NCBI GenBank assembly: GCA_016930595.1
Contig: JAFGGJ010000002.1
Coordinates: 39,698-103,697 of the forward strand
Origin: Planctomycetota bacterium
GTDB taxonomy: Bacteria > Planctomycetota > SZUA-567 > JAFGGJ01
Direction of reading: 5' to 3'
DNA: 64,000 nucleotides
Shown here: in pieces, positions 27,532 through 35,757 of the stretch
How positions within the stretch are numbered: the first letter of the stretch is position 1
Layout of the letters: each line of letters opens with the position of its first letter
Position numbers and translations under genes: made by a program
The notes under the pieces: model-generated
What the model saw: the letters and a program-made list of their open reading frames with translations, nothing else
Databases searched by the model: none
Told to the model about the DNA's origin: nothing

Positions 27532-27605
27532 TGCCCTGTCGTCTAATGGTAGGACGCCTGACTCTGGATCAGGTAGTCTACGTTCGAATCGTAGCAGGGC
27601 AGCCA
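27532..27605 (+). tRNA. tRNA-Gln (anticodon CTG)
   Basis: Acceptor TGCCCTG/CAGGGCA; anticodon stem CCTGA/TCAGG with loop CTCTGGA; T arm CTACG-TTCGAAT-CGTAG; encoded CCA. Confidence 0.96.
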
Positions 27606-27618
27606 GTAATGCCCGGGT

Positions 27619-27696
27619 GTCCCCATCGTCTAGCCCGGCCCAGGACGGTAGGTTCTCAGCCTACAAACCGGGGTTCGAATCCCCGTGGGGATACCA
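27619..27696 (+). tRNA. tRNA-Glu (anticodon CTC)
   Basis: Acceptor GTCCCCA/TGGGGAT; anticodon stem GTAGG/CCTAC with loop TTCTCAG; T arm CGGGG-TTCGAAT-CCCCG; encoded CCA. Confidence 0.95.
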
Positions 27697-30202: not shown

Positions 30203-30223
30203 GTTTTTCGGGAGGTGCTTGCT

Positions 30224-33200
30224 TTGGCGCGGGATTGCCCTCATTGCGGCGGGGAACTTCCGGGCCCTCCGGCTTCTCTTCCCGAATGCTGCCCTTTCTG
30301 CGGCGTTCCCCTCGCTTCACGCCCTTCTGATGAAACGATGTCCCTCGACCGCGCTGCTTCCGCGGCTTCCACGCTCGATGCCCCGGCCCGTTCCCGCCAG
30401 GCCCAAGAATTCCTCCGGACTTCCGTCGCGGGCCACAGGATTCTCGGTGAACTTGGACGCGGCGGCATGGGCCTTGTCTTCCTCGCGCACGAACCCGGTC
30501 TCGAACGGCCCGTGGCGCTCAAACTCGTTGATCCGGACCTCGCCGGTCCCCCCTCCCCGGGCGATTCCTCCGCTTACCTCTTCCGCTTCACCGAAGAAGC
30601 CCGCATCACCGGCCGGCTCCAGCATCCCGGCATCGTCCCAGTCTACCGCATGGGTTCCGACGAGGACGGCCGCTGTTTCTACACGATGCGCCCCGTTACC
30701 GAAGGCAGAACCCTCAAGCAGATACTCCGCGAACTTGCCGATGGAGGGCCCGCCGCAGCGGAACGCTGGTCCGTCCGCCGCCTCGTTGAAATACTCCGCT
30801 CCGTCTGCCTTACCGTCGCCTACGCGCATCACTGCGGTGTCATTCACCGCGACCTCAAGCCCGCCAATATCGTCGTCGGCGATTATGGCGAAGTCCTCGT
30901 CATCGACTGGGGGCTCGCCAGGCCGTGCAATGCTCCTTCCACGGCGGAAGCCGACACTCTTTCTGCATCCGCAGCCGGCGTCCCATCTTCCGATCGCATC
31001 GGCGTCGTCTCGAAACGCGGCGATTTCCAGCTCACGCTCGACGGCGAGATCGTCGGCACCCCCGCCTACATGTCTCCCGAACAGTCCCGCGGCGACCTCG
31101 GCGCCGTCTCCACGGCTTCTGACGTCTATGCCCTCGGCGCCATCCTCTATGAAATGCTTGCCCTCTCTCCGCCTTTCATCGCCGACAATCTCGCGGATCT
31201 CCTTGCCGCCGTCGCCTCCGGCGACATTCAGCCGCCTTCCGAGCGTTCCCCATGGCGTGATATACCTGAAGACCTCGCAGCCGTTGCTCTCAAAGCCATG
31301 GCGAACGCACCCTCCGACCGTTTCGCGTCTGCGCGCCTCATGGCCGATACCCTGGGCAATTGGCTCGACGGCGTCAGCCGCTGGAGAATCGCCGAAAGAA
31401 TCGACCTCTCCTCCCCTGCCGCCGCTTCCTGCTTCATCAGCCTCGGCAGCTCCCGCCGCCGCTTCGCCGTCAGGGACGGCGTCGTCTGCCTGAACAGCGG
31501 CGAAATCACCCTCATCTATGACAGGCGTTTCTCCGGCTGGATGCGCATGTCCTGCACCGCCTGGTGTGAAGGCAGGCGGGCCACGGAATTGTCCCTTGTC
31601 CTCTGTGCCGCCTCTCCGGACCGCATCCGCCACGCGGGGGAAGACGGTTACTGTCTCCAGTTCGGCGGCAAGGATCTCACCTGCCTCAACTTCGCACGCC
31701 ATCAGCAGGATGTGCTCCATATCCCGGACGTCTGCCCCAGGCCCGGCAGGAAATACTCCCTAATGGCGCAGGTCCTTGACGGCGAAGTTTCTTTCCATGT
31801 CAACGGCGAAGAAATTGCCTGCTGGCGCGACCCTTCCCCCCTCTTTGGCGGCTACGTGGGCTTCTACGGTTTCGGCAGCGGCGCCCGTTTCAGCGACGTT
31901 GTCGTCCAGACGCTCGGCAAACCCACCCTCGTTTCCGTCCTCGAAACACCCGATGCCTATTTCAGCGACGGCCTCTTTTCCAGGGCGCTCGACATGTATT
32001 CCGAAATCAGCCGCTCTCATCCCCGCAGGATCGAAGGCCTGCGCGCCGCCTACAAGGCCGCTCTCTGCATGATGATGCTCGACGACGTCTCCGGTGCCGT
32101 CGCCGCCTTCCGCAGGATGCAGCAGAAACCCGCTTCCGTTCCCCTTGGCGTGCTCGGCCACGTCCAGCTCCTTGAACGCGTCCATGACGAAGCCGCGGCC
32201 TGCGACTTCCTCCTCTCGTGGGCGCGCGGCGTTGAAAATCCTTCGCCGGCCTGGGCCGAAGTCGCCGTTTTTGCCTTCGACCGGGCCAGGGCGCATGTCT
32301 CGCGCCCCGATGAATCCTCCTCGTCTCCTTTCTTCGACACTTGGTTCGAATCCGCCCTCAGGCTCGTACGTGATCGCGATGAACTTGCCGTACGCGCAAG
32401 TCCGCGGTATTTCAACCGCCTCCTTTCCCGTTGGATCCGGCACCGCGTCGTCGCCTTCGACCCCTCCCGGGCCGAATCTACCGGCGGCGCGCCGTCCATT
32501 GCCGAGCTCAAGGCGCTTTTCTTCTGGCCGTCTTTCGACGTCCGCCCCGGTATGTTTCTGGAATCGGCCGACGCCTTCCTCCGTCTCGGTCGCCCGGATG
32601 CCGCACGTCTCATTTTCAACGCCGTTTTCTCCTGGTACCCGGACAGGGCGGATCTGCGTTTTTCTGCCCTGAGCGGCATAGGCCGCTCCTTCGTCGGCAC
32701 CCTGCACCTTGACACTGGAATAAGCTTCTTCGAAAAAGCCGCTGAAGTCGACTCAGCTCCTCCCGGCAACGTCTTGACCGCTCTGGATTACTGTGCCGCC
32801 GCCTGCTCTTGTGCCGGCCGGTATGATAAAGCCCTCTCCTGTTACCGCAGGATCGTCGCAAAACGGCCCTGGGCCAGGGCGGCTTCCCGCAAAGCACTTC
32901 TCTCGATCGGTGACGTCCTCATGGCCGACGGCGATTACTCCGCCGCCTTCGAGTGGTTCGTGTCCGTTCCGGAACTTGCCAGGCACCACAAGACCGCTTC
33001 TGCCGCCGCGCATTCCGGAGCCGGGCTGGCCCTCATCATGATGGGTCGCCTTGATGATGCCAGGGACTGGTTCGAACGGCGCCTGTTCGACCGTTCGAGC
33101 CGAGGCGTCACGGAAACCGGCTGTGTCCGGGCCGCCGGGCTGCTTCGTTCCATCGGCCGCCACGCCGAAGCCCTCGAATACCTTGATGCCGTCCGCTCTG

Positions 33201-33835
33201 CAAAGTCGGCGCGTGGCGAATTGCGCACTCTCCTGCTCGCCGAAACCGCCGAAACTCTCAGCCGCATGGGCCGTCATGAAGATGCTGCCTCCGCCCTCGA
33301 AGACTGCCGGCACGGCGCCGCTTCCGTCCGCATTTCTTTTTCCCTTCACATCGCTTCCGCCCACCTGCTGCGCCGCAGCGGACGCCTTGCCGAAGCCCTC
33401 GATGGTTATGCCTCACTTGCCTCTTCGGCGCACGTCTCCGCGGCGCGGGAAGCCGCCGCCTGGGTCGGACTCATCGAACTGAAAAACGATCCGGCCTGCC
33501 TCCCGGTGCTTTCAGACCGCTTTCTCGGCGTGGCCCTGGCTGAACTGGATGATCTGGAAAACAACGCCTGGGCCGCGAACTGGTGGGCGCTCGCCATGAT
33601 GGGCTTCCCCGGCGGCGCGGCGATGGACTTCCCAGCGGAAGCGTTCCACGGGCGTGCCGTGTCGGGCTGGGTCTCCGGCGGCGAAGGTTCGTGGGCGGCC
33701 GACGAAAGCGGCGTTCCCATTACGCCGGCGGAAGCGCTCCGCAGGACTCCACTGCTGCATCGGGACCGCTTCCGCGAAATGCTCCGCTTCCGCGCCTCTT
33801 TCGACCCTGCTTGGACGAAATTCGCCTCGCCATAA
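30224..33835 (+). CDS. Hanks-type Ser/Thr kinase (Zn ribbon, kinase, lectin-like beta domain, TPRs), PknD-like
   Basis: CPHC/CPFC; LGRGGMG, VALK, HPGIVPVY, HRDLKPAN, DWGLA, GTPAYMSPEQ; TPR-like helices. TTG start chosen 8 nt after GGAGG. Confidence 0.92.
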   Translation: MARDCPHCGGELPGPPASLPECCPFCGVPLASRPSDETMSLDRAASAASTLDAPARSRQAQEFLRTSVAGHRILGELGRGGMGLVFLAHEPGLERPVALKLVDPDLAGPPSPGDSSAYLFRFTEEARITGRLQHPGIVPVYRMGSDEDGRCFYTMRPVTEGRTLKQILRELADGGPAAAERWSVRRLVEILRSVCLTVAYAHHCGVIHRDLKPANIVVGDYGEVLVIDWGLARPCNAPSTAEADTLSASAAGVPSSDRIGVVSKRGDFQLTLDGEIVGTPAYMSPEQSRGDLGAVSTASDVYALGAILYEMLALSPPFIADNLADLLAAVASGDIQPPSERSPWRDIPEDLAAVALKAMANAPSDRFASARLMADTLGNWLDGVSRWRIAERIDLSSPAAASCFISLGSSRRRFAVRDGVVCLNSGEITLIYDRRFSGWMRMSCTAWCEGRRATELSLVLCAASPDRIRHAGEDGYCLQFGGKDLTCLNFARHQQDVLHIPDVCPRPGRKYSLMAQVLDGEVSFHVNGEEIACWRDPSPLFGGYVGFYGFGSGARFSDVVVQTLGKPTLVSVLETPDAYFSDGLFSRALDMYSEISRSHPRRIEGLRAAYKAALCMMMLDDVSGAVAAFRRMQQKPASVPLGVLGHVQLLERVHDEAAACDFLLSWARGVENPSPAWAEVAVFAFDRARAHVSRPDESSSSPFFDTWFESALRLVRDRDELAVRASPRYFNRLLSRWIRHRVVAFDPSRAESTGGAPSIAELKALFFWPSFDVRPGMFLESADAFLRLGRPDAARLIFNAVFSWYPDRADLRFSALSGIGRSFVGTLHLDTGISFFEKAAEVDSAPPGNVLTALDYCAAACSCAGRYDKALSCYRRIVAKRPWARAASRKALLSIGDVLMADGDYSAAFEWFVSVPELARHHKTASAAAHSGAGLALIMMGRLDDARDWFERRLFDRSSRGVTETGCVRAAGLLRSIGRHAEALEYLDAVRSAKSARGELRTLLLAETAETLSRMGRHEDAASALEDCRHGAASVRISFSLHIASAHLLRRSGRLAEALDGYASLASSAHVSAAREAAAWVGLIELKNDPACLPVLSDRFLGVALAELDDLENNAWAANWWALAMMGFPGGAAMDFPAEAFHGRAVSGWVSGGEGSWAADESGVPITPAEALRRTPLLHRDRFREMLRFRASFDPAWTKFASP

Positions 33836-33849
33836 CCTTCCTGCTTCCC

Positions 33850-34070
33850 GCCTCCACCCACCCCAATCGCCTGTGGCGCGCGTGCCTCCGGCAAGGAAGC
33901 GCATTCTTCGCGCAGGCACGGGGTGAGTGGGCGTTGGGAGCGGAGCGACCAAGCCCGAGCCGTGGGCTCTTGCATGGGTACAGTGCGTCTTACATACAGG
34001 CCGCAGGCGCAGGGGTGGGTGGGGCCCCCGCCCCCGGGGATCCCGGACCGCCATGGCGTACTGTGCCATG
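33850..34070. other. highly structured intergenic palindromic element (ncRNA or ssDNA-folding element; family unknown)
   Basis: CCACCCACCCC (33854-64)/GGGGTGGGTGG (34012-22) and CGCCTGTGGC (33868-77)/GCCGCAGGCG (34000-09) enclose three hairpins; a further hairpin lies at 34052-34070. Confidence 0.6.
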
Positions 34071-34275
34071 CGCGGCCGGCGATTAATGGAGTCTTGAGGG
34101 AATCGGAGGCGCAAACGGTGCTTTTCCTCTTGCGCCGTTATCGCGCCGAATGACCGGTGTTTTTTTGTGTTTTGCCTGGACTTGGCGTCCGCGTGGATTA
34201 ATATATGTAAATCGGGGTAAAATATGAGAACCGGGGGAAGCGGAAAGCGTCTAATAGGAAAGACGGGAGGATGCT

Positions 34276-35757
34276 ATGGCGAACGTGAAGGCTTTTGCGA
34301 TGCTGGCTGCGGCGCTTGTTCTGGCCGGCTGTCTCGAAACAGACGACCTTAACCGGCGCGTGGGCCAGCTCGATCAGAAAGTCAGCGACCTGACGGTCAA
34401 GCTCGACAAGGCGCTCCAGGAACTGGAAGCTGCCAGGGTGCAGTTGAAAGTCGCGGAAGCGGGCCAGGCGGCGCGGGAATCGCAGATCGAAGAACTTGTC
34501 GCGGCAAACCGGAAACTGAAAGAAAGGACCGACGAACTCGAAGCCAAGGTCAACGCCGTCAAGGCGGGGGAATTCGTCCCACAGTACAGCTCCAAGCCCC
34601 TGGTGAAACTCCTCGGCCATTCCGACTCCCAGGTAAGCAGCCAGGCTATGCAGATACTCAAGAAGCTCGCCGACCCCGAATCCATAGACGACATAATCGC
34701 CATTGCGGAAAGCCGCGCCACCGCAACGACGCGCGCCAACGCGGTTCTGTCCCTGGCGGGCTTCAAGGATAAGCGGGTGGAAGCGCTCCTCGTCAAAATG
34801 ATGCAGGATCCCGACAGTAACGTCAGGCGTGCGGTGTACCAGGCGTGCGGCGAAGTGGGCATGGAAGGATTGCTGGACCCGCTCCTGAAAGCGCTGGACG
34901 CGGAACTCGCGGCACCCGTCACACACGGGTCTTACAACTACGAACTGCGCTATCTCGTGGAAGCCGTCGGCAAGTTCAGCGATATCAAGGCCGGGAAAAA
35001 ACTCCTCGCTCTGGCGGCAAGCCCTGACAGGCACCTCCGCCAGTACGTTTCGCAGGCATTATACCGTTACAGCAACCCCGAACTGGTGCCCGACGTGGTC
35101 GAATTCCTCAAGAAAACCGCAGTGGATACAACGGACAGCGAAGCGTATTCGCTCGTCCAGATGATTGTGCAGATGCTGCAGAGGATGAGGGATCCGCGGG
35201 GTACGGAAGCCATAATGTTCCTCCTGGGCAGCAAGGATTCCAGGATTCGCCAGACGGCCGCTTCCGCTCTCAGGGGAATGGCGGCCGCTGAACACGTGCC
35301 CGCCCTGGCCGGAATGCTCGAATCCCGCCAGGCGCCGAATGGACAGCCCCTGGCGTCGGCTGAGCTCCGGTCCGTGGTTGGCGTCGTGAGTTCGCTGGGC
35401 GACGGCAGGGCCGCCAAGGCCCTTCTCTCCCTGGTCGGCGACAATGACATGTCGCTGGCGTATTCCGCAGCGACTGCCATGATGCAGTGCCGTGATCCCA
35501 GGCTCACCGAAGAAATGGTCAAAGCCTGGGAAAAGTGCCGCGAAGGCTCCCCCAAGCAGTACCTGAAAAGAGTGCTCATGTCGGGCAACTTCCCCGTCGA
35601 ATGGGTGGAGCATGACAATGCATTCGTTATAGACACCGAAAGGCTCAAGCTGATAAAGGAAGGAAAGGATCCCGGCACGCCGGTGCCGCCGGTCAGGCTG
35701 CCCGGCGTCAGCCCCGGCATCAGGAACGGGTTCACGCCCACGGAAAACCAGTTCTAG
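34276..35757 (+). CDS. lipoprotein with N-terminal coiled coil and HEAT repeats
   Basis: Lipobox LAGC; heptad segment; repeated L..LL.D.D..VR..A...L units; GGGAGG RBS. Confidence 0.85.
   Translation: MANVKAFAMLAAALVLAGCLETDDLNRRVGQLDQKVSDLTVKLDKALQELEAARVQLKVAEAGQAARESQIEELVAANRKLKERTDELEAKVNAVKAGEFVPQYSSKPLVKLLGHSDSQVSSQAMQILKKLADPESIDDIIAIAESRATATTRANAVLSLAGFKDKRVEALLVKMMQDPDSNVRRAVYQACGEVGMEGLLDPLLKALDAELAAPVTHGSYNYELRYLVEAVGKFSDIKAGKKLLALAASPDRHLRQYVSQALYRYSNPELVPDVVEFLKKTAVDTTDSEAYSLVQMIVQMLQRMRDPRGTEAIMFLLGSKDSRIRQTAASALRGMAAAEHVPALAGMLESRQAPNGQPLASAELRSVVGVVSSLGDGRAAKALLSLVGDNDMSLAYSAATAMMQCRDPRLTEEMVKAWEKCREGSPKQYLKRVLMSGNFPVEWVEHDNAFVIDTERLKLIKEGKDPGTPVPPVRLPGVSPGIRNGFTPTENQF

What the first reader, a model, noticed from the sequence alone, without database searches (positions are those of the whole stretch)
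33850..34070. Multi-hairpin palindromic element with G-runs and a GCGNAGC mini-hairpin at the skew flip
Seen: nested long-range stems (11 bp perfect, plus 10 bp with one G-T) close a junction. Inside are hairpins CGTGCCT/AGGCACG (33881-33920), GGGCGTTGG/CCAAGCCC capped by GA-GCGGAGC-GA (33929-33956) and GAGCC-GTG-GGCTC (33957-33969). Then come GGGGTGGGTGGGG-CCCCCGCCCCC-GGGG (G-quadruplex-capable), CATGGC/GCCATG, and an AT-rich tract near 34160-34230. It does not look like a tRNA, 6S, SRP, tmRNA or riboswitch that I recognise. Known: d(GCGNAGC) is an exceptionally stable ssDNA mini-hairpin found in phage origins and promoters. Inference: a cis-acting initiation or loading site producing the local skew, a new ncRNA, or a REP/MITE-like repeat.
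Basis: partly seen in the sequence, partly recalled or inferred. Interest (0 to 1): 0.8.

Follow-up and report, generated by a model that had tools for sequence, protein, structure and literature searches.

The report
Hairpin repeats marking sawtooth skew boundaries
A cluster of hairpin-forming DNA repeats sits exactly where the G-versus-C strand bias flips, and similar repeats mark dozens of such flips that cut this bacterial genome into sawtooth domains of about 35 kb, a pattern otherwise known from animal chromosomes with many replication origins.

Summary
The described stems and hairpins are real and fold better than shuffles (RNA z -3.2, ssDNA z -4.2). No Rfam family matches.

The element is not unique. 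It is a mosaic of genome-specific repeats: a 67-nt core unit (75 copies), module B (17) and module C (17). Two mini-hairpins covary, units form inverted pairs, and almost all copies are intergenic. The genome's one Y1/HUH gene scores as a REP-associated tyrosine transposase, and the same repeats lie beside it. So it is REP/BIME-like.

The skew flip is also real, and it is not a gene-strand effect. The genome shows a sawtooth: 19 sharp up-jumps against 1 down-jump, and 78 of 80 segments decline linearly. G at four-fold sites swings from 0.17 to 0.67. Repeat clusters mark the up-jumps: 59 of 62 repeat-bearing contig ends have up-jump polarity and none the opposite.

Whether the repeats cause the jumps or only settle there is open. 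About half of the boundaries lack them, and genes and tRNAs are not co-oriented with the domains. I found no description of this pattern in bacteria.

The parts
33854..33920 (-). Core REP-like unit (about 67 nt). It starts on the + strand with CCACCCACCCC and contains two small covarying hairpins.
   Evidence: nhmmer hit C37:73551-73617(-), E 1.9e-14, one of 75 hits. Covariation.
33922..33998 (+). Module B (about 77 nt). A GTGG lies directly 5' of the GGCGTTGG...CCAAGCC hairpin. It also contains the GAGCC-GTG-GGCTC hairpin.
   Evidence: nhmmer hit C37:73619-73695(+), E 5.6e-22, one of 17 copies. Hairpins appear in the folds.
33999..34023 (+). The terminal 25 nt of a + oriented core unit, ending in GGGGTGGGTGG. 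It is the inverted partner of 33854-33878 and closes the long-range stem.
   Evidence: Inverted repeats I6 and I9. The same 25-mer matches many core termini.
34034..34161 (+). Module C (about 128 nt, listed copies 81-95% identical to the window copy). It has its own hairpins, CATGGC/GCCATG and GCGCAA.../...TTGCGC, and a weak terminator-like end.
   Evidence: nhmmer hit C37:73731-73858(+), one of 17 hits. Terminator-like site at 34143-34160 followed by a T run.
34162..34275 (.). Unique AT-rich spacer upstream of the HEAT-repeat gene. It is not repeated elsewhere in the genome.
   Evidence: BLAST coverage falls to 1, the locus itself, from 34166 onward.
33621..34120 (.). GC-skew up-jump. The 250-nt windows go from -0.14 to +0.17, and the cumulative G-C minimum is at 33871.
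   Evidence: part 6.
30215..33835 (+). Upstream gene, a Ser/Thr protein kinase with TPR repeats. It lies on the + strand although that strand is C-rich here.
   Evidence: Pfam Pkinase E 6e-30 and TPR families. Its + strand skew is -0.15.
34276..35757 (+). Downstream gene, a HEAT-repeat protein, also on the + strand.
   Evidence: Pfam HEAT_2 E 4.6e-32.

Best explanation
The element at 33854-34161 is one cluster of genome-specific, REP/BIME-like hairpin repeats. It consists of an inverted pair of 'core' termini enclosing module B, followed by module C. These are non-coding, intergenic, hairpin-forming units of the kind that a REP-associated tyrosine transposase (RAYT, an HUH/Y1 single-strand DNA nuclease) cuts and rejoins. 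This genome has exactly one such gene, and the same repeats lie next to it.

The cluster lies precisely on one of the sharp GC-skew up-jumps that divide the genome into N-shaped (sawtooth) skew domains, median about 33-39 kb. Clusters of this family and at least four other repeat families mark those boundaries genome-wide with a fixed polarity.

The most likely mechanism is that the boundaries are fixed sites from which DNA unwinding and synthesis proceed outward in both directions. The strand whose 5' end is next to the boundary is then preferentially single-stranded and becomes G-rich. Every position between two boundaries is traversed from one side or the other, which gives the linear decline. 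Hairpin repeats that move through single-stranded DNA collect at these sites in the orientation that this polarity dictates.

Shown: the repeat nature, hairpin covariation, presence of a RAYT, the mutational and strand-independent nature of the skew, the sawtooth, and its coincidence with the repeat clusters.

Inferred: mobilisation by the RAYT, outward-diverging synthesis, and that the repeats are settlers rather than the cause.
For: Repeat nature:
- The 441-nt gap has 63 matches in the own genome.
- There are 75 core units at E<1e-3, and 17 hits each for modules B and C.
- 70 of 75 core, 17 of 17 B and 17 of 17 C copies overlap a called gene by 30% or less.

Structure is maintained:
- Hairpin 1 arms are TGCC/GGCA 32, CGCC/GGCG 11 and TGCT/AGCA 4, with 4 of 51 mismatched.
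- Hairpin 2 is GCC..GGC 28 and GGC..GCC 14, with 4 other.

Inverted pairs:
- Adjacent units are (-,+) 14, (+,-) 3, (-,-) 7 and (+,+) 4.
- There are 7 tight pairs of 131-148 nt, and I saw no flanking target duplication by eye.

RAYT:
- There is 1 Y1_Tnp match in the genome.
- It scores 105.7 bits on NCBIfam NF047646 against a cutoff of 80.
- Its 3' flank, C38:1-530, is covered 5-19-fold by the same repeats.

Sawtooth:
- 19 up-jumps against 1 down-jump.
- 78 of 80 segments have a negative slope.
- 25 of 25 segments with both boundaries certified have a negative slope, r from -0.67 to -0.98. |slope| scales as L^(-0.75 +/- 0.11) and there is no flat middle.

The skew is mutational and independent of gene strand:
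- Four-fold-site GC skew runs from -0.59/-0.45 to +0.45/+0.64 for + and - genes.
- G frequency runs from 0.17 to 0.67.

Coincidence with repeats:
- Of 62 repeat-bearing contig ends, 59 have up-jump polarity, 3 are flat and 0 are opposite.
- Away from contig ends, 6 of 19 core clusters lie within 1 kb of a strong internal jump, against 19 of 970 intergenic gaps.
- Families P1-P4 have their 5' side 301 nt or less from a contig end in 48 of 55 copies, and the 3' side in 0 of 55.

Sign: in the relative G007 the G-rich strand carries 186 of 279 genes, so the leading strand is G-rich in this class.

Literature: IS200/IS605 Y1 transposases excise from and insert into the lagging-strand template (passages read in PMC3333891 and PMC6006769).
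Against: - 11 of 19 assembled internal up-jumps carry no multi-copy repeat, so repeats are not required for a jump.
- Some clusters lie up to 7 kb from a boundary with no local jump: C40:30037, C93:60378, C15:5554.
- There is no co-orientation of genes with the domains. The fraction on the + strand is 0.50, 0.51, 0.47, 0.49 and 0.48 across domain quintiles.
- tRNA genes are 14 co-oriented, 19 head-on and 5 neutral. This is unexpected if the domains reflect stable fork direction.
- AT skew at four-fold sites has the same sign as GC skew here but the opposite sign in the relative G007, so the mutational signature differs from that relative's replication skew.
- The canonical 5' GT[AG]G-plus-hairpin geometry of REPs is not evident for the core unit.
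- The RAYT is flanked by repeats on one visible side only, and the contig ends 590 nt from the gene.
- No related genome was available to show gain, loss or movement of copies.
- Gene calls come from my own simple ORF scorer.
Confidence: 0.6

Rival explanations
1. The repeat clusters are themselves the cis-acting initiators. The hairpins, or G-rich tails extruded in single-stranded DNA, are nicked by the HUH nuclease or used as priming sites, and outward strand-displacement or bidirectional replication starts there. The repeats therefore cause the skew jumps.
For: - The cumulative-skew minimum falls inside or within about 50 nt of the cluster at C37:73568, C18:9287, C11:20115, C67:31615 and C37:25565.
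- Units are arranged (-,+) 14 against (+,-) 3, so the G-rich 3' tail always points outward.
- G-quadruplex motifs are enriched near boundaries: 56 of 403 fall in 4.5% of the sequence, 39 on the outward-reading strand against 17.
- 59 of 62 repeat-bearing contig ends are polar.
- HUH nucleases leave a free 3'-OH. This is known chemistry of the family, from recall and from passages in PMC6006769.
Against: - 11 of 19 internal jumps have no multi-copy repeat.
- Two of those carry a different palindromic array, and two others carry another motif.
- Several clusters sit where there is no jump.
- RAYT homologues occur in the relative G003, which shows no sawtooth in 400 kb.
- The elements' own C-rich left arm and G-rich right arm help to pin the local minimum on them.
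Confidence: 0.22
2. The skew flip is an ordinary gene-orientation or transcription effect, and the element is an unrelated intergenic repeat.
For: A convergent gene pair lies 1.9 kb to the right, at 35757/35797.
Against: - Both genes flanking the element are on the + strand, yet their skews are -0.15 and +0.02.
- Skew changes smoothly through long runs of same-strand genes.
- Four-fold-site skew shifts by about 1.05 for genes of either strand.
- Gene strand is 50:50 in every quintile of the domains.
Confidence: 0.02
3. The units are a multi-copy family of small structured RNAs, or conserved 3'/5' UTR elements such as terminators or stabilisers.
For: - Compensatory changes occur in two hairpins.
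- RNA fold z is -3.2.
- Module C has a weak terminator-like end.
Against: - There is no Rfam match in the window or in 14 other boundary loci.
- Units occur as palindromic inverted pairs and next to genes of either orientation.
- Their orientation follows the skew boundary and not the neighbouring gene.
- The compensatory changes represent few independent events, because the copies fall into subfamilies.
Confidence: 0.05
4. The modules are MITEs, that is deletion derivatives, of a classical cut-and-paste (DDE) insertion sequence.
For: Terminal inverted repeats CCACCCACCCC/GGGGTGGGTGG bound 131-148-nt pairs.
Against: - I saw no flanking direct duplication in the 7 tight pairs.
- The architecture is a modular mosaic with many solo units.
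- The units have hairpins that covary.
- I did not search for a parent IS.
Confidence: 0.05
5. The sawtooth, and with it the 'flip', is an artefact of metagenome assembly or binning, such as chimeric joins at repeats.
For: The genome is a 96-contig draft, 82% complete. Many contigs break at these repeats.
Against: - The gradual declines lie inside contigs of unique sequence.
- 11 internal jumps lie in unique intergenic DNA.
- 78 of 80 segments share the same slope sign, which does not depend on contig orientation.
- Contamination is 0.98%.
Confidence: 0.03

Closest known systems
REP / BIME / REPIN elements with their RAYT (TnpA_REP) nuclease, as in Escherichia coli, Pseudomonas and Stenotrophomonas
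   Same: - Short intergenic hairpin repeats in tens of copies.
- Inverted pairs and mosaic clusters with linkers.
- Stems kept by compensatory change.
- A single-copy Y1/HUH gene that scores as RAYT, with repeats beside it.
- No target duplication seen.
   Different: - The units are longer (67 nt, with 77- and 128-nt companion modules) than the 30-40-nt REPs described in PMC3333891.
- The GTGG lies at the 3' end of the core unit and not 5' of the hairpin foot.
- The clusters are confined to skew-domain boundaries with a fixed polarity. I did not see this described for REPs: 0 papers contain both terms, and there is no mention of skew in PMC6006769.
N-domains of mammalian genomes: skew profiles with upward jumps at replication origins and a linear decline between them (recalled: Touchon 2005, Huvet 2007; the concept is named in the search listing)
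   Same: - Sharp upward jumps greatly outnumber downward ones.
- The decline between jumps is near-linear.
- The amplitude is largely independent of domain length (exponent -0.75).
   Different: - This is a bacterium with DnaA and a beta clamp.
- Domains are about 35 kb, not about 1 Mb.
- The amplitude is far larger, about +/-0.55 at four-fold sites.
- No origin mapping exists for this organism.
Skew inversion at a bacterial oriC
   Same: The sign of the flip is the same, C-rich to G-rich reading 5' to 3'. It lies in an intergenic position with an AT-rich tract next to it.
   Different: - There are dozens of flips per genome and not one.
- There is no DnaA-box enrichment: 1 of 21 exact boxes falls in boundary regions that make up 6.4% of the genome.
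- dnaA and dnaN are not at boundaries.
- Genes do not diverge from the site.
Orientation bias of IS200/IS605 insertions relative to fork direction (passages in PMC3333891 and PMC6006769; PMC5027513 abstract only)
   Same: Y1/HUH elements act on one strand in single-stranded DNA, so their orientation reports the strand asymmetry of the locus.
   Different: The repeats here are not spread along the arms. They are concentrated at the points where polarity switches.
Skew gradients of vertebrate mitochondrial DNA, where time spent single-stranded gives a linear gradient (recalled: Reyes 1998, Faith and Pollock 2003)
   Same: Skew at synonymous sites changes linearly with position. The discontinuities fall at hairpin-type initiation sites.
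   Different: Here the skew crosses zero and changes sign within each domain, and there are many domains on one chromosome.

Membership tests
REP/BIME/REPIN-RAYT system | Short repeat, many copies, mostly between genes | tested here: met
   There are 75 core units. 70 of 75 overlap a called gene by 30% or less. B and C are 17 of 17 each.
REP/BIME/REPIN-RAYT system | Imperfect palindrome whose stem is preserved among copies | tested here: met
   Two mini-hairpins show compensatory arm changes. 47 of 51 and 42 of 46 scorable copies are fully paired. The number of independent events is small because the copies form subfamilies.
REP/BIME/REPIN-RAYT system | Conserved GT[AG]G tetranucleotide 0-2 nt 5' of the hairpin foot (PMC3333891 and PMC6006769) | tested here: inconclusive
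   In the core unit GTGG occurs twice, but at the 3' end after the hairpins (alignment). In module B a GTGG or GTTG lies directly 5' of a hairpin. PMC6006769 notes that some RAYT classes lack the consensus.
REP/BIME/REPIN-RAYT system | Units paired in inverted orientation and clustered in mosaics | tested here: met
   There are 14 (-,+) adjacencies, and 7 tight pairs of 131-148 nt. Mosaics of core, B, C and P modules appear.
REP/BIME/REPIN-RAYT system | A RAYT gene, typically single copy | tested here: met
   There is 1 PF01797 match in the genome. NF047646 scores 105.7 bits against a cutoff of 80, and IS200 only 27.1 against 55. The genome is 82% complete.
REP/BIME/REPIN-RAYT system | RAYT gene flanked on both sides by its cognate REPs (REPtron) | tested here: inconclusive
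   The 3' side, C38:1-530, is full of module C and core fragments. The 5' side, 1095-1280, has one 54-nt match only. The contig ends 590 nt beyond the gene.
REP/BIME/REPIN-RAYT system | The nuclease binds and cuts the repeat as single-stranded DNA | not testable with these tools
   This needs biochemistry.
Bacterial chromosomal origin (oriC type) | Cluster of DnaA boxes | tested here: not met
   1 of 21 exact boxes and 3 of 38 one-wildcard boxes lie in boundary regions that make up 6.4% of the genome. None is in the window element.
Bacterial chromosomal origin (oriC type) | Skew changes from C-rich to G-rich | tested here: met
Bacterial chromosomal origin (oriC type) | Genes, especially tRNA and ribosomal genes, co-oriented away from the site | tested here: not met
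   Gene strand is about 50:50 in all domain quintiles. tRNAs are 14 co-oriented, 19 head-on and 5 neutral.
N-domain type skew domain | Sharp up-jumps, no matching down-jumps, linear decline, amplitude independent of length | tested here: met
   19 up against 1 down. At a looser threshold the counts are 26 against 14. 78 of 80 and 25 of 25 slopes are negative. The length exponent is -0.75 +/- 0.11, and the middle-third slope is as steep as the whole.
N-domain type skew domain | Jumps coincide with mapped replication initiation | not testable with these tools
   Only assembled contigs of one DNA run were served, and no read depth.
DDE-type MITE | Terminal inverted repeats plus a target-site duplication | tested here: not met
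   The termini are inverted repeats, but I saw no duplication by eye in the flanks of the 7 tight pairs.
Any Rfam RNA family | Covariance-model match | tested here: not met
   No hit reaches gathering score in the window other than two tRNAs. The best hits in the region have E of 1.7 or more. There are 0 hits at E<=0.1 in 14 other boundary loci.

The most novel reading that the evidence does not exclude
This bacterium copies its chromosome from many dispersed, DnaA-box-free initiation sites, roughly 70-100 of them about 35 kb apart. The sites are marked, and perhaps specified, by polar clusters of REP-like hairpins that its RAYT-type HUH nuclease can nick. That would make it a prokaryotic counterpart of eukaryotic multi-origin replication, leaving N-domains in the sequence, and it would give the long-enigmatic REP/RAYT systems a role in DNA synthesis.
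Probability: 0.22. Interest if true: 0.97.

Novelty: new variant of a known kind. Interest (0 to 1): 0.86.

Why it matters
REP elements and their single-copy RAYT nucleases are widespread, but their function is unsettled. Bacterial chromosomes are taken to have a single origin, with a step-shaped skew.

Here a REP-like system is tied with strict polarity to the break points of a sawtooth skew. That skew is as strong as the replication skew of a related genome.

If the boundaries are sites of diverging DNA synthesis, this is the first sequence footprint of dispersed initiation in a bacterium, and it links HUH-nuclease repeats to that process. If they are not, an unknown, position-dependent, strand-asymmetric mutational process of very large effect needs explaining.

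Either way, the genome offers dozens of precisely mapped sites for testing.

Tried and rejected
- Rfam at gathering and at permissive thresholds found nothing relevant.
- A genome-contig scan with an IUPAC pattern built from the core terminus was too loose.
- No copies were found in 40 same-class relatives by DNA search.
- A metagenome-contig scan with the upstream kinase found only one distant relative, 33% identical in the kinase domain. No orthologous locus or empty site could be compared.
- A viral-contig scan with a conserved 28-mer of module C gave 0 matches.
- Sequencing runs: there is one DNA holder, a sediment metagenome that may be the source sample, and no RNA holder is listed. Laying its contigs gave only short unitigs over the repeats and no piece spanning the stretch. 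It therefore gave no check of the junction and no depth profile.
- Earlier findings of this scan: none for this genome or sequence. One unrelated note concerns a skew jump at tRNA genes in an archaeon.
- The protein atlas did not help with taxonomy.
- A search for a motif shared by repeat-free jumps, using 9-mers, found none. DnaA boxes are not enriched.
- Unusual replication genes were not found in this 82%-complete genome: family-B polymerases, PrimPol and PolC. The control for PF03175 rang nowhere, so that search is uninformative. rpoB was not found.
- The tandem array of core units on contig C85 is not CRISPR-like, because the stretches between units are the same in each period.
- Literature: 'GC skew' + sawtooth + bacteria gave 1 irrelevant paper. 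'GC skew' + multiple origins + bacterial chromosome gave 10 papers, none describing this by title or abstract. Passages of SkewDB (PMC8941118) mention only possible multiple origins or assembly problems in one Salmonella record. RAYT + GC skew gave 0 papers. Skew + 'upward jumps' + bacteria gave 2 papers, both on eukaryotes.
- Supplementary files of papers were not opened.
Full report
**1. The observation**

The region lies in a 440-nt gap. On one side is a + strand Ser/Thr-kinase/TPR gene (30215-33835). On the other is a + strand HEAT-repeat gene (34276-35757).

- The 11-nt perfect inverted repeat is 33854-33864 / 34012-34022.
- The 10-nt repeat at 90% is 33868-33877 / 34000-34009.
- The arms 33881-33900 / 33901-33920 are 75% complementary.
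- The two small hairpins of 33929-33969 appear in the minimum-energy folds.

Folding is better than for dinucleotide shuffles.
- RNA, + strand: z -3.2, with 1 of 200 shuffles as good.
- RNA, - strand: z -2.6.
- ssDNA over 33845-34165: z -4.19, with 0 of 100 as good.

No Rfam family matches at gathering score. The best permissive hits have E of 1.7 or more.

**2. It is a repeat, and a mosaic one**

The gap has 63 matches in its own genome, which is 3.40 Mb in 96 contigs and 82% complete. Many matches are at contig ends. Coverage by copies runs from 33850 to about 34160 and then drops to the locus itself.

Three modules can be separated.

(a) A core unit of about 67 nt.
- Written so that it ends in GGGGTGGGTGG, it carries two mini-hairpins and a G-rich tail.
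- A profile built from it finds 75 copies at E<1e-3.
- The 11-mer tail occurs 47 times, against 6.4 expected from base composition.

(b) Module B, about 77 nt, with 17 copies.

(c) Module C, about 128 nt, with 17 hits. Listed copies are 81-95% identical to the window copy.

The window's element is laid out as follows.
- Core unit on the - strand: 33854-33920.
- Module B: 33922-33998.
- The last 25 nt of a + oriented core unit: 33999-34023.
- Module C: 34034-34161.

The 'long-range stems' are therefore the two inverted termini of a core pair that encloses module B.

**3. The kind of repeat**

The two mini-hairpins keep their pairing through compensatory changes.
- Hairpin 1 arms are TGCC/GGCA in 32 copies, CGCC/GGCG in 11 and TGCT/AGCA in 4, with 4 of 51 mismatched.
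- Hairpin 2 is GCC..GGC in 28 and GGC..GCC in 14, with 4 other (55 distinct copies).
- The copies fall into subfamilies, so the number of independent events is small.

Units often form inverted pairs. Adjacent units are (-,+) 14 times, (+,-) 3, (-,-) 7 and (+,+) 4. Seven tight pairs measure 131-148 nt, and I saw no flanking duplication by eye.

Nearly all copies are intergenic by my own ORF-based gene calls: 70 of 75 core, 17 of 17 B and 17 of 17 C.

The genome has exactly one Y1/HUH gene, of 167 aa, at C38:591-1094.
- It has the HVH and Y motifs.
- It scores 105.7 bits on NCBIfam 'REP-associated tyrosine transposase' against a cutoff of 80.
- It scores only 27.1 bits on the IS200 model against a cutoff of 55.
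- Its 3' flank is packed with module C and core fragments. Its 5' flank is not, and the contig ends 590 nt from the gene.

These features match the REP/BIME/REPIN-RAYT systems as described in PMC3333891 and PMC6006769 (passages read). Three differences stand out:
- The units are longer.
- The GTGG sits 3' of the core hairpins and not 5' of the foot.
- Flanking by repeats is shown on one side of the gene only.

The GCGNAGC mini-hairpin is not a conserved feature. It is present in 5 of the 15 module-B copies that cover that position, and the motif occurs 3,341 times in the genome.

**4. The skew flip is real and is part of a genome-wide sawtooth**

In the window the skew falls smoothly from +0.21 (1-4 kb) to -0.17 (28-32 kb). 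It jumps to +0.19 by 36-40 kb and falls again to -0.15 (60-64 kb). The minimum of cumulative G-C is at 33871, inside the element.

This is not a gene-strand effect.
- Both flanking genes are on the + strand.
- Skew changes gradually through long runs of same-strand genes.

Genome-wide the picture is the same.
- Sharp changes of more than 0.25 between adjacent 4-kb windows are up-jumps 19 times and a down-jump once.
- At a looser threshold the counts are 26 and 14.
- Of 80 segments of 15 kb or more, bounded by contig ends or strong jumps, 78 have a negative slope. This sign does not depend on contig orientation.
- In the 25 segments whose two boundaries are both certified, all slopes are negative, with r from -0.67 to -0.98.
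- In those 25, |slope| scales with length to the power -0.75 +/- 0.11, and the middle third is as steep as the whole.

The amplitude is therefore roughly fixed and the profile stretches with the domain. This is the shape of the 'N-domains' of mammalian chromosomes (recalled literature).

The asymmetry is mutational.
- At four-fold degenerate sites, the + strand GC skew runs from -0.59 to +0.45 for + genes and from -0.45 to +0.64 for - genes.
- G frequency runs from 0.17 to 0.67 and C from 0.67 to 0.17.

I sampled two same-class relatives over 400 kb each, and neither shows the pattern.
- G007 has a uniform skew of about -0.18, with 186 of 279 genes on the G-rich strand.
- G003 has a weak skew.

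**5. The repeats mark the up-jumps**

Contigs of 12 kb or more start G-rich (49 of 71, against 13 C-rich) and end C-rich (51 of 71, against 6 G-rich).

I split the contig ends by whether the last 400 nt hold a repeat, and measured the skew in the next 4 kb.

| Contig ends | Up-jump polarity | Flat | Opposite |
|---|---|---|---|
| With repeat (62) | 59 | 3 | 0 |
| Without repeat (80) | 44 | 17 | 19 |

That assemblies break at repeats is trivial. That the breaks all have the same skew polarity is not.

Away from contig ends, 6 of 19 core clusters lie within 1 kb of a strong internal jump, against 19 of 970 intergenic gaps. Of 14 internal high-copy repeat loci, 6 have a right-minus-left skew difference above 0.2 and none below -0.2. 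The comparison figure is 4.9% of 628 gaps.

Four further repeat families, P1 to P4 (21, 16, 9 and 9 copies), are almost confined to contig ends. 48 of 55 copies have their 5' side 301 nt or less from an end, and none has its 3' side there. The internal copies at jumps point away from the jump. Their neighbouring genes have either orientation.

The palindromic 12-mer TTAACCGGTTAA occurs 8 times. Four occurrences are at two repeat-free jumps, and four are within about 60 nt of contig ends.

A boundary is therefore a mirror-symmetric mosaic of modules whose arms point outward. The RAYT gene itself lies at the start of a contig that begins G-rich.

**6. What argues against simple readings**

Eleven of the 19 internal jumps that were assembled through have no multi-copy repeat. 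This sample is biased, because repeat-rich boundaries break the assembly. No shared 9-mer was found among them.

The following do not fit an ordinary origin:
- DnaA boxes are not enriched. 1 of 21 falls in boundary regions that make up 6.4% of the genome.
- dnaA and dnaN are present but not at boundaries.
- Genes are 50:50 on the two strands in every quintile of a domain.
- tRNA genes are 14 co-oriented, 19 head-on and 5 neutral.
- The L16 ribosomal gene lies on a strand with skew about -0.06.

The last three are unlike the 2:1 bias of relative G007, and unexpected if the domains record a stable fork direction under the usual selection.

At four-fold sites the AT skew has the same sign as the GC skew here, and the opposite sign in G007.

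No unusual polymerase or primase genes were found in this incomplete genome. RAYT homologues occur in 11 of 17 genomes of one related family. G003, which has no sawtooth in the part sampled, is one of them.

**7. Interpretation**

Identity is well supported. The element is a REP/BIME-like cluster in a genome with a RAYT.

Its position is also well supported. It lies on one of roughly 70 polar boundaries of N-shaped skew domains, with a median segment of 33 kb overall and 39 kb for certified ones.

The sign fits any process that unwinds DNA outward from the boundary and leaves the 5'-proximal strand single-stranded. In this class the G-rich strand is the leading strand, and here the G-rich strand reads 5' to 3' away from the boundary. 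Three such processes are bidirectional replication, nick-primed strand displacement, and transfer-like single-strand production.

The length scaling favours a process that covers every position from one side or the other, as replication does, over sporadic events of limited range.

I hold that the repeats are more likely settlers than cause. Y1/HUH elements use single-stranded DNA at forks, and about half of the boundaries lack them. The causal reading remains live at about one in five.

**8. Novelty**

The element is a new variant of a known kind of repeat. I found no description in bacteria of the sawtooth or of its coupling to REP-like clusters in the library searched. Supplements were not opened.

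No close relatives exist in the collections searched, so gain, loss and conservation could not be tested.

Noticed in passing
whole genome G000; window 1-64000: There is a genome-wide sawtooth (N-shaped) GC skew: 19 sharp up-jumps against 1 down-jump, and 78 of 80 segments have a negative slope. G frequency at four-fold sites ranges from 0.17 to 0.67 by position, independent of gene strand. Two same-class relatives, sampled over 400 kb each, lack the pattern.
   Followed up: yes
G000 contig ends, e.g. C37:1-114, C33:1-112, C2:1-81, C52:1-135, C84:1-123: Four further repeat families, P1-P4 (110-135 nt; 21, 16, 9 and 9 copies), lie almost only at contig ends. Their 5' side always faces the end: 48 of 55 copies, against 0 of 55 for the 3' side. 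There is no Rfam match and the neighbouring gene orientation is mixed. They may be the ends of longer unresolved boundary structures.
   Followed up: partly
G000 C39:9668-9687, C71:61736-61755, and within about 60 nt of the ends of C44, C57, C68 and C85: The palindromic 12-mer TTAACCGGTTAA, part of a short TTAACCGG array, occurs 8 times in the genome. Every occurrence is at a repeat-free skew up-jump or at a contig end.
   Followed up: partly
G000 C26:69512-69581 and C57:70490-70765: Clusters of the motif GGGACAGT(TG), in direct and inverted copies, lie in the intergenic DNA beside two strong up-jumps that carry none of the main repeat families.
   Followed up: no
G000 C85:3013-3385 (locus L161): There is a tandem array of four core units with a period of 82 nt, followed by one inverted unit. 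The stretches between units are identical, so this is a tandem duplication and not a CRISPR-like array.
   Followed up: partly
window 27532-27602 and 27619-27693: Two tRNA genes, Gln and Glu by aragorn, lie on the + strand where that strand is C-rich. They would be head-on to the putative fork direction of the domain.
   Followed up: partly
G000 C38:591-1094 (locus L015): The single RAYT gene lies at the G-rich start of its contig, which means at a domain boundary. Its closest homologues in public data are 70%, 65% and 63% identical and come from metagenomes. One 48% homologue is labelled Planctomycetota by its source.
   Followed up: partly
G000 C22:4177-5328 and C60:223-1455: Matches to a DNA polymerase III alpha-type (PolC-model) profile, all below its cutoff, lie at the end of one contig and the start of another. 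This may be one gene interrupted by a contig break.
   Followed up: no
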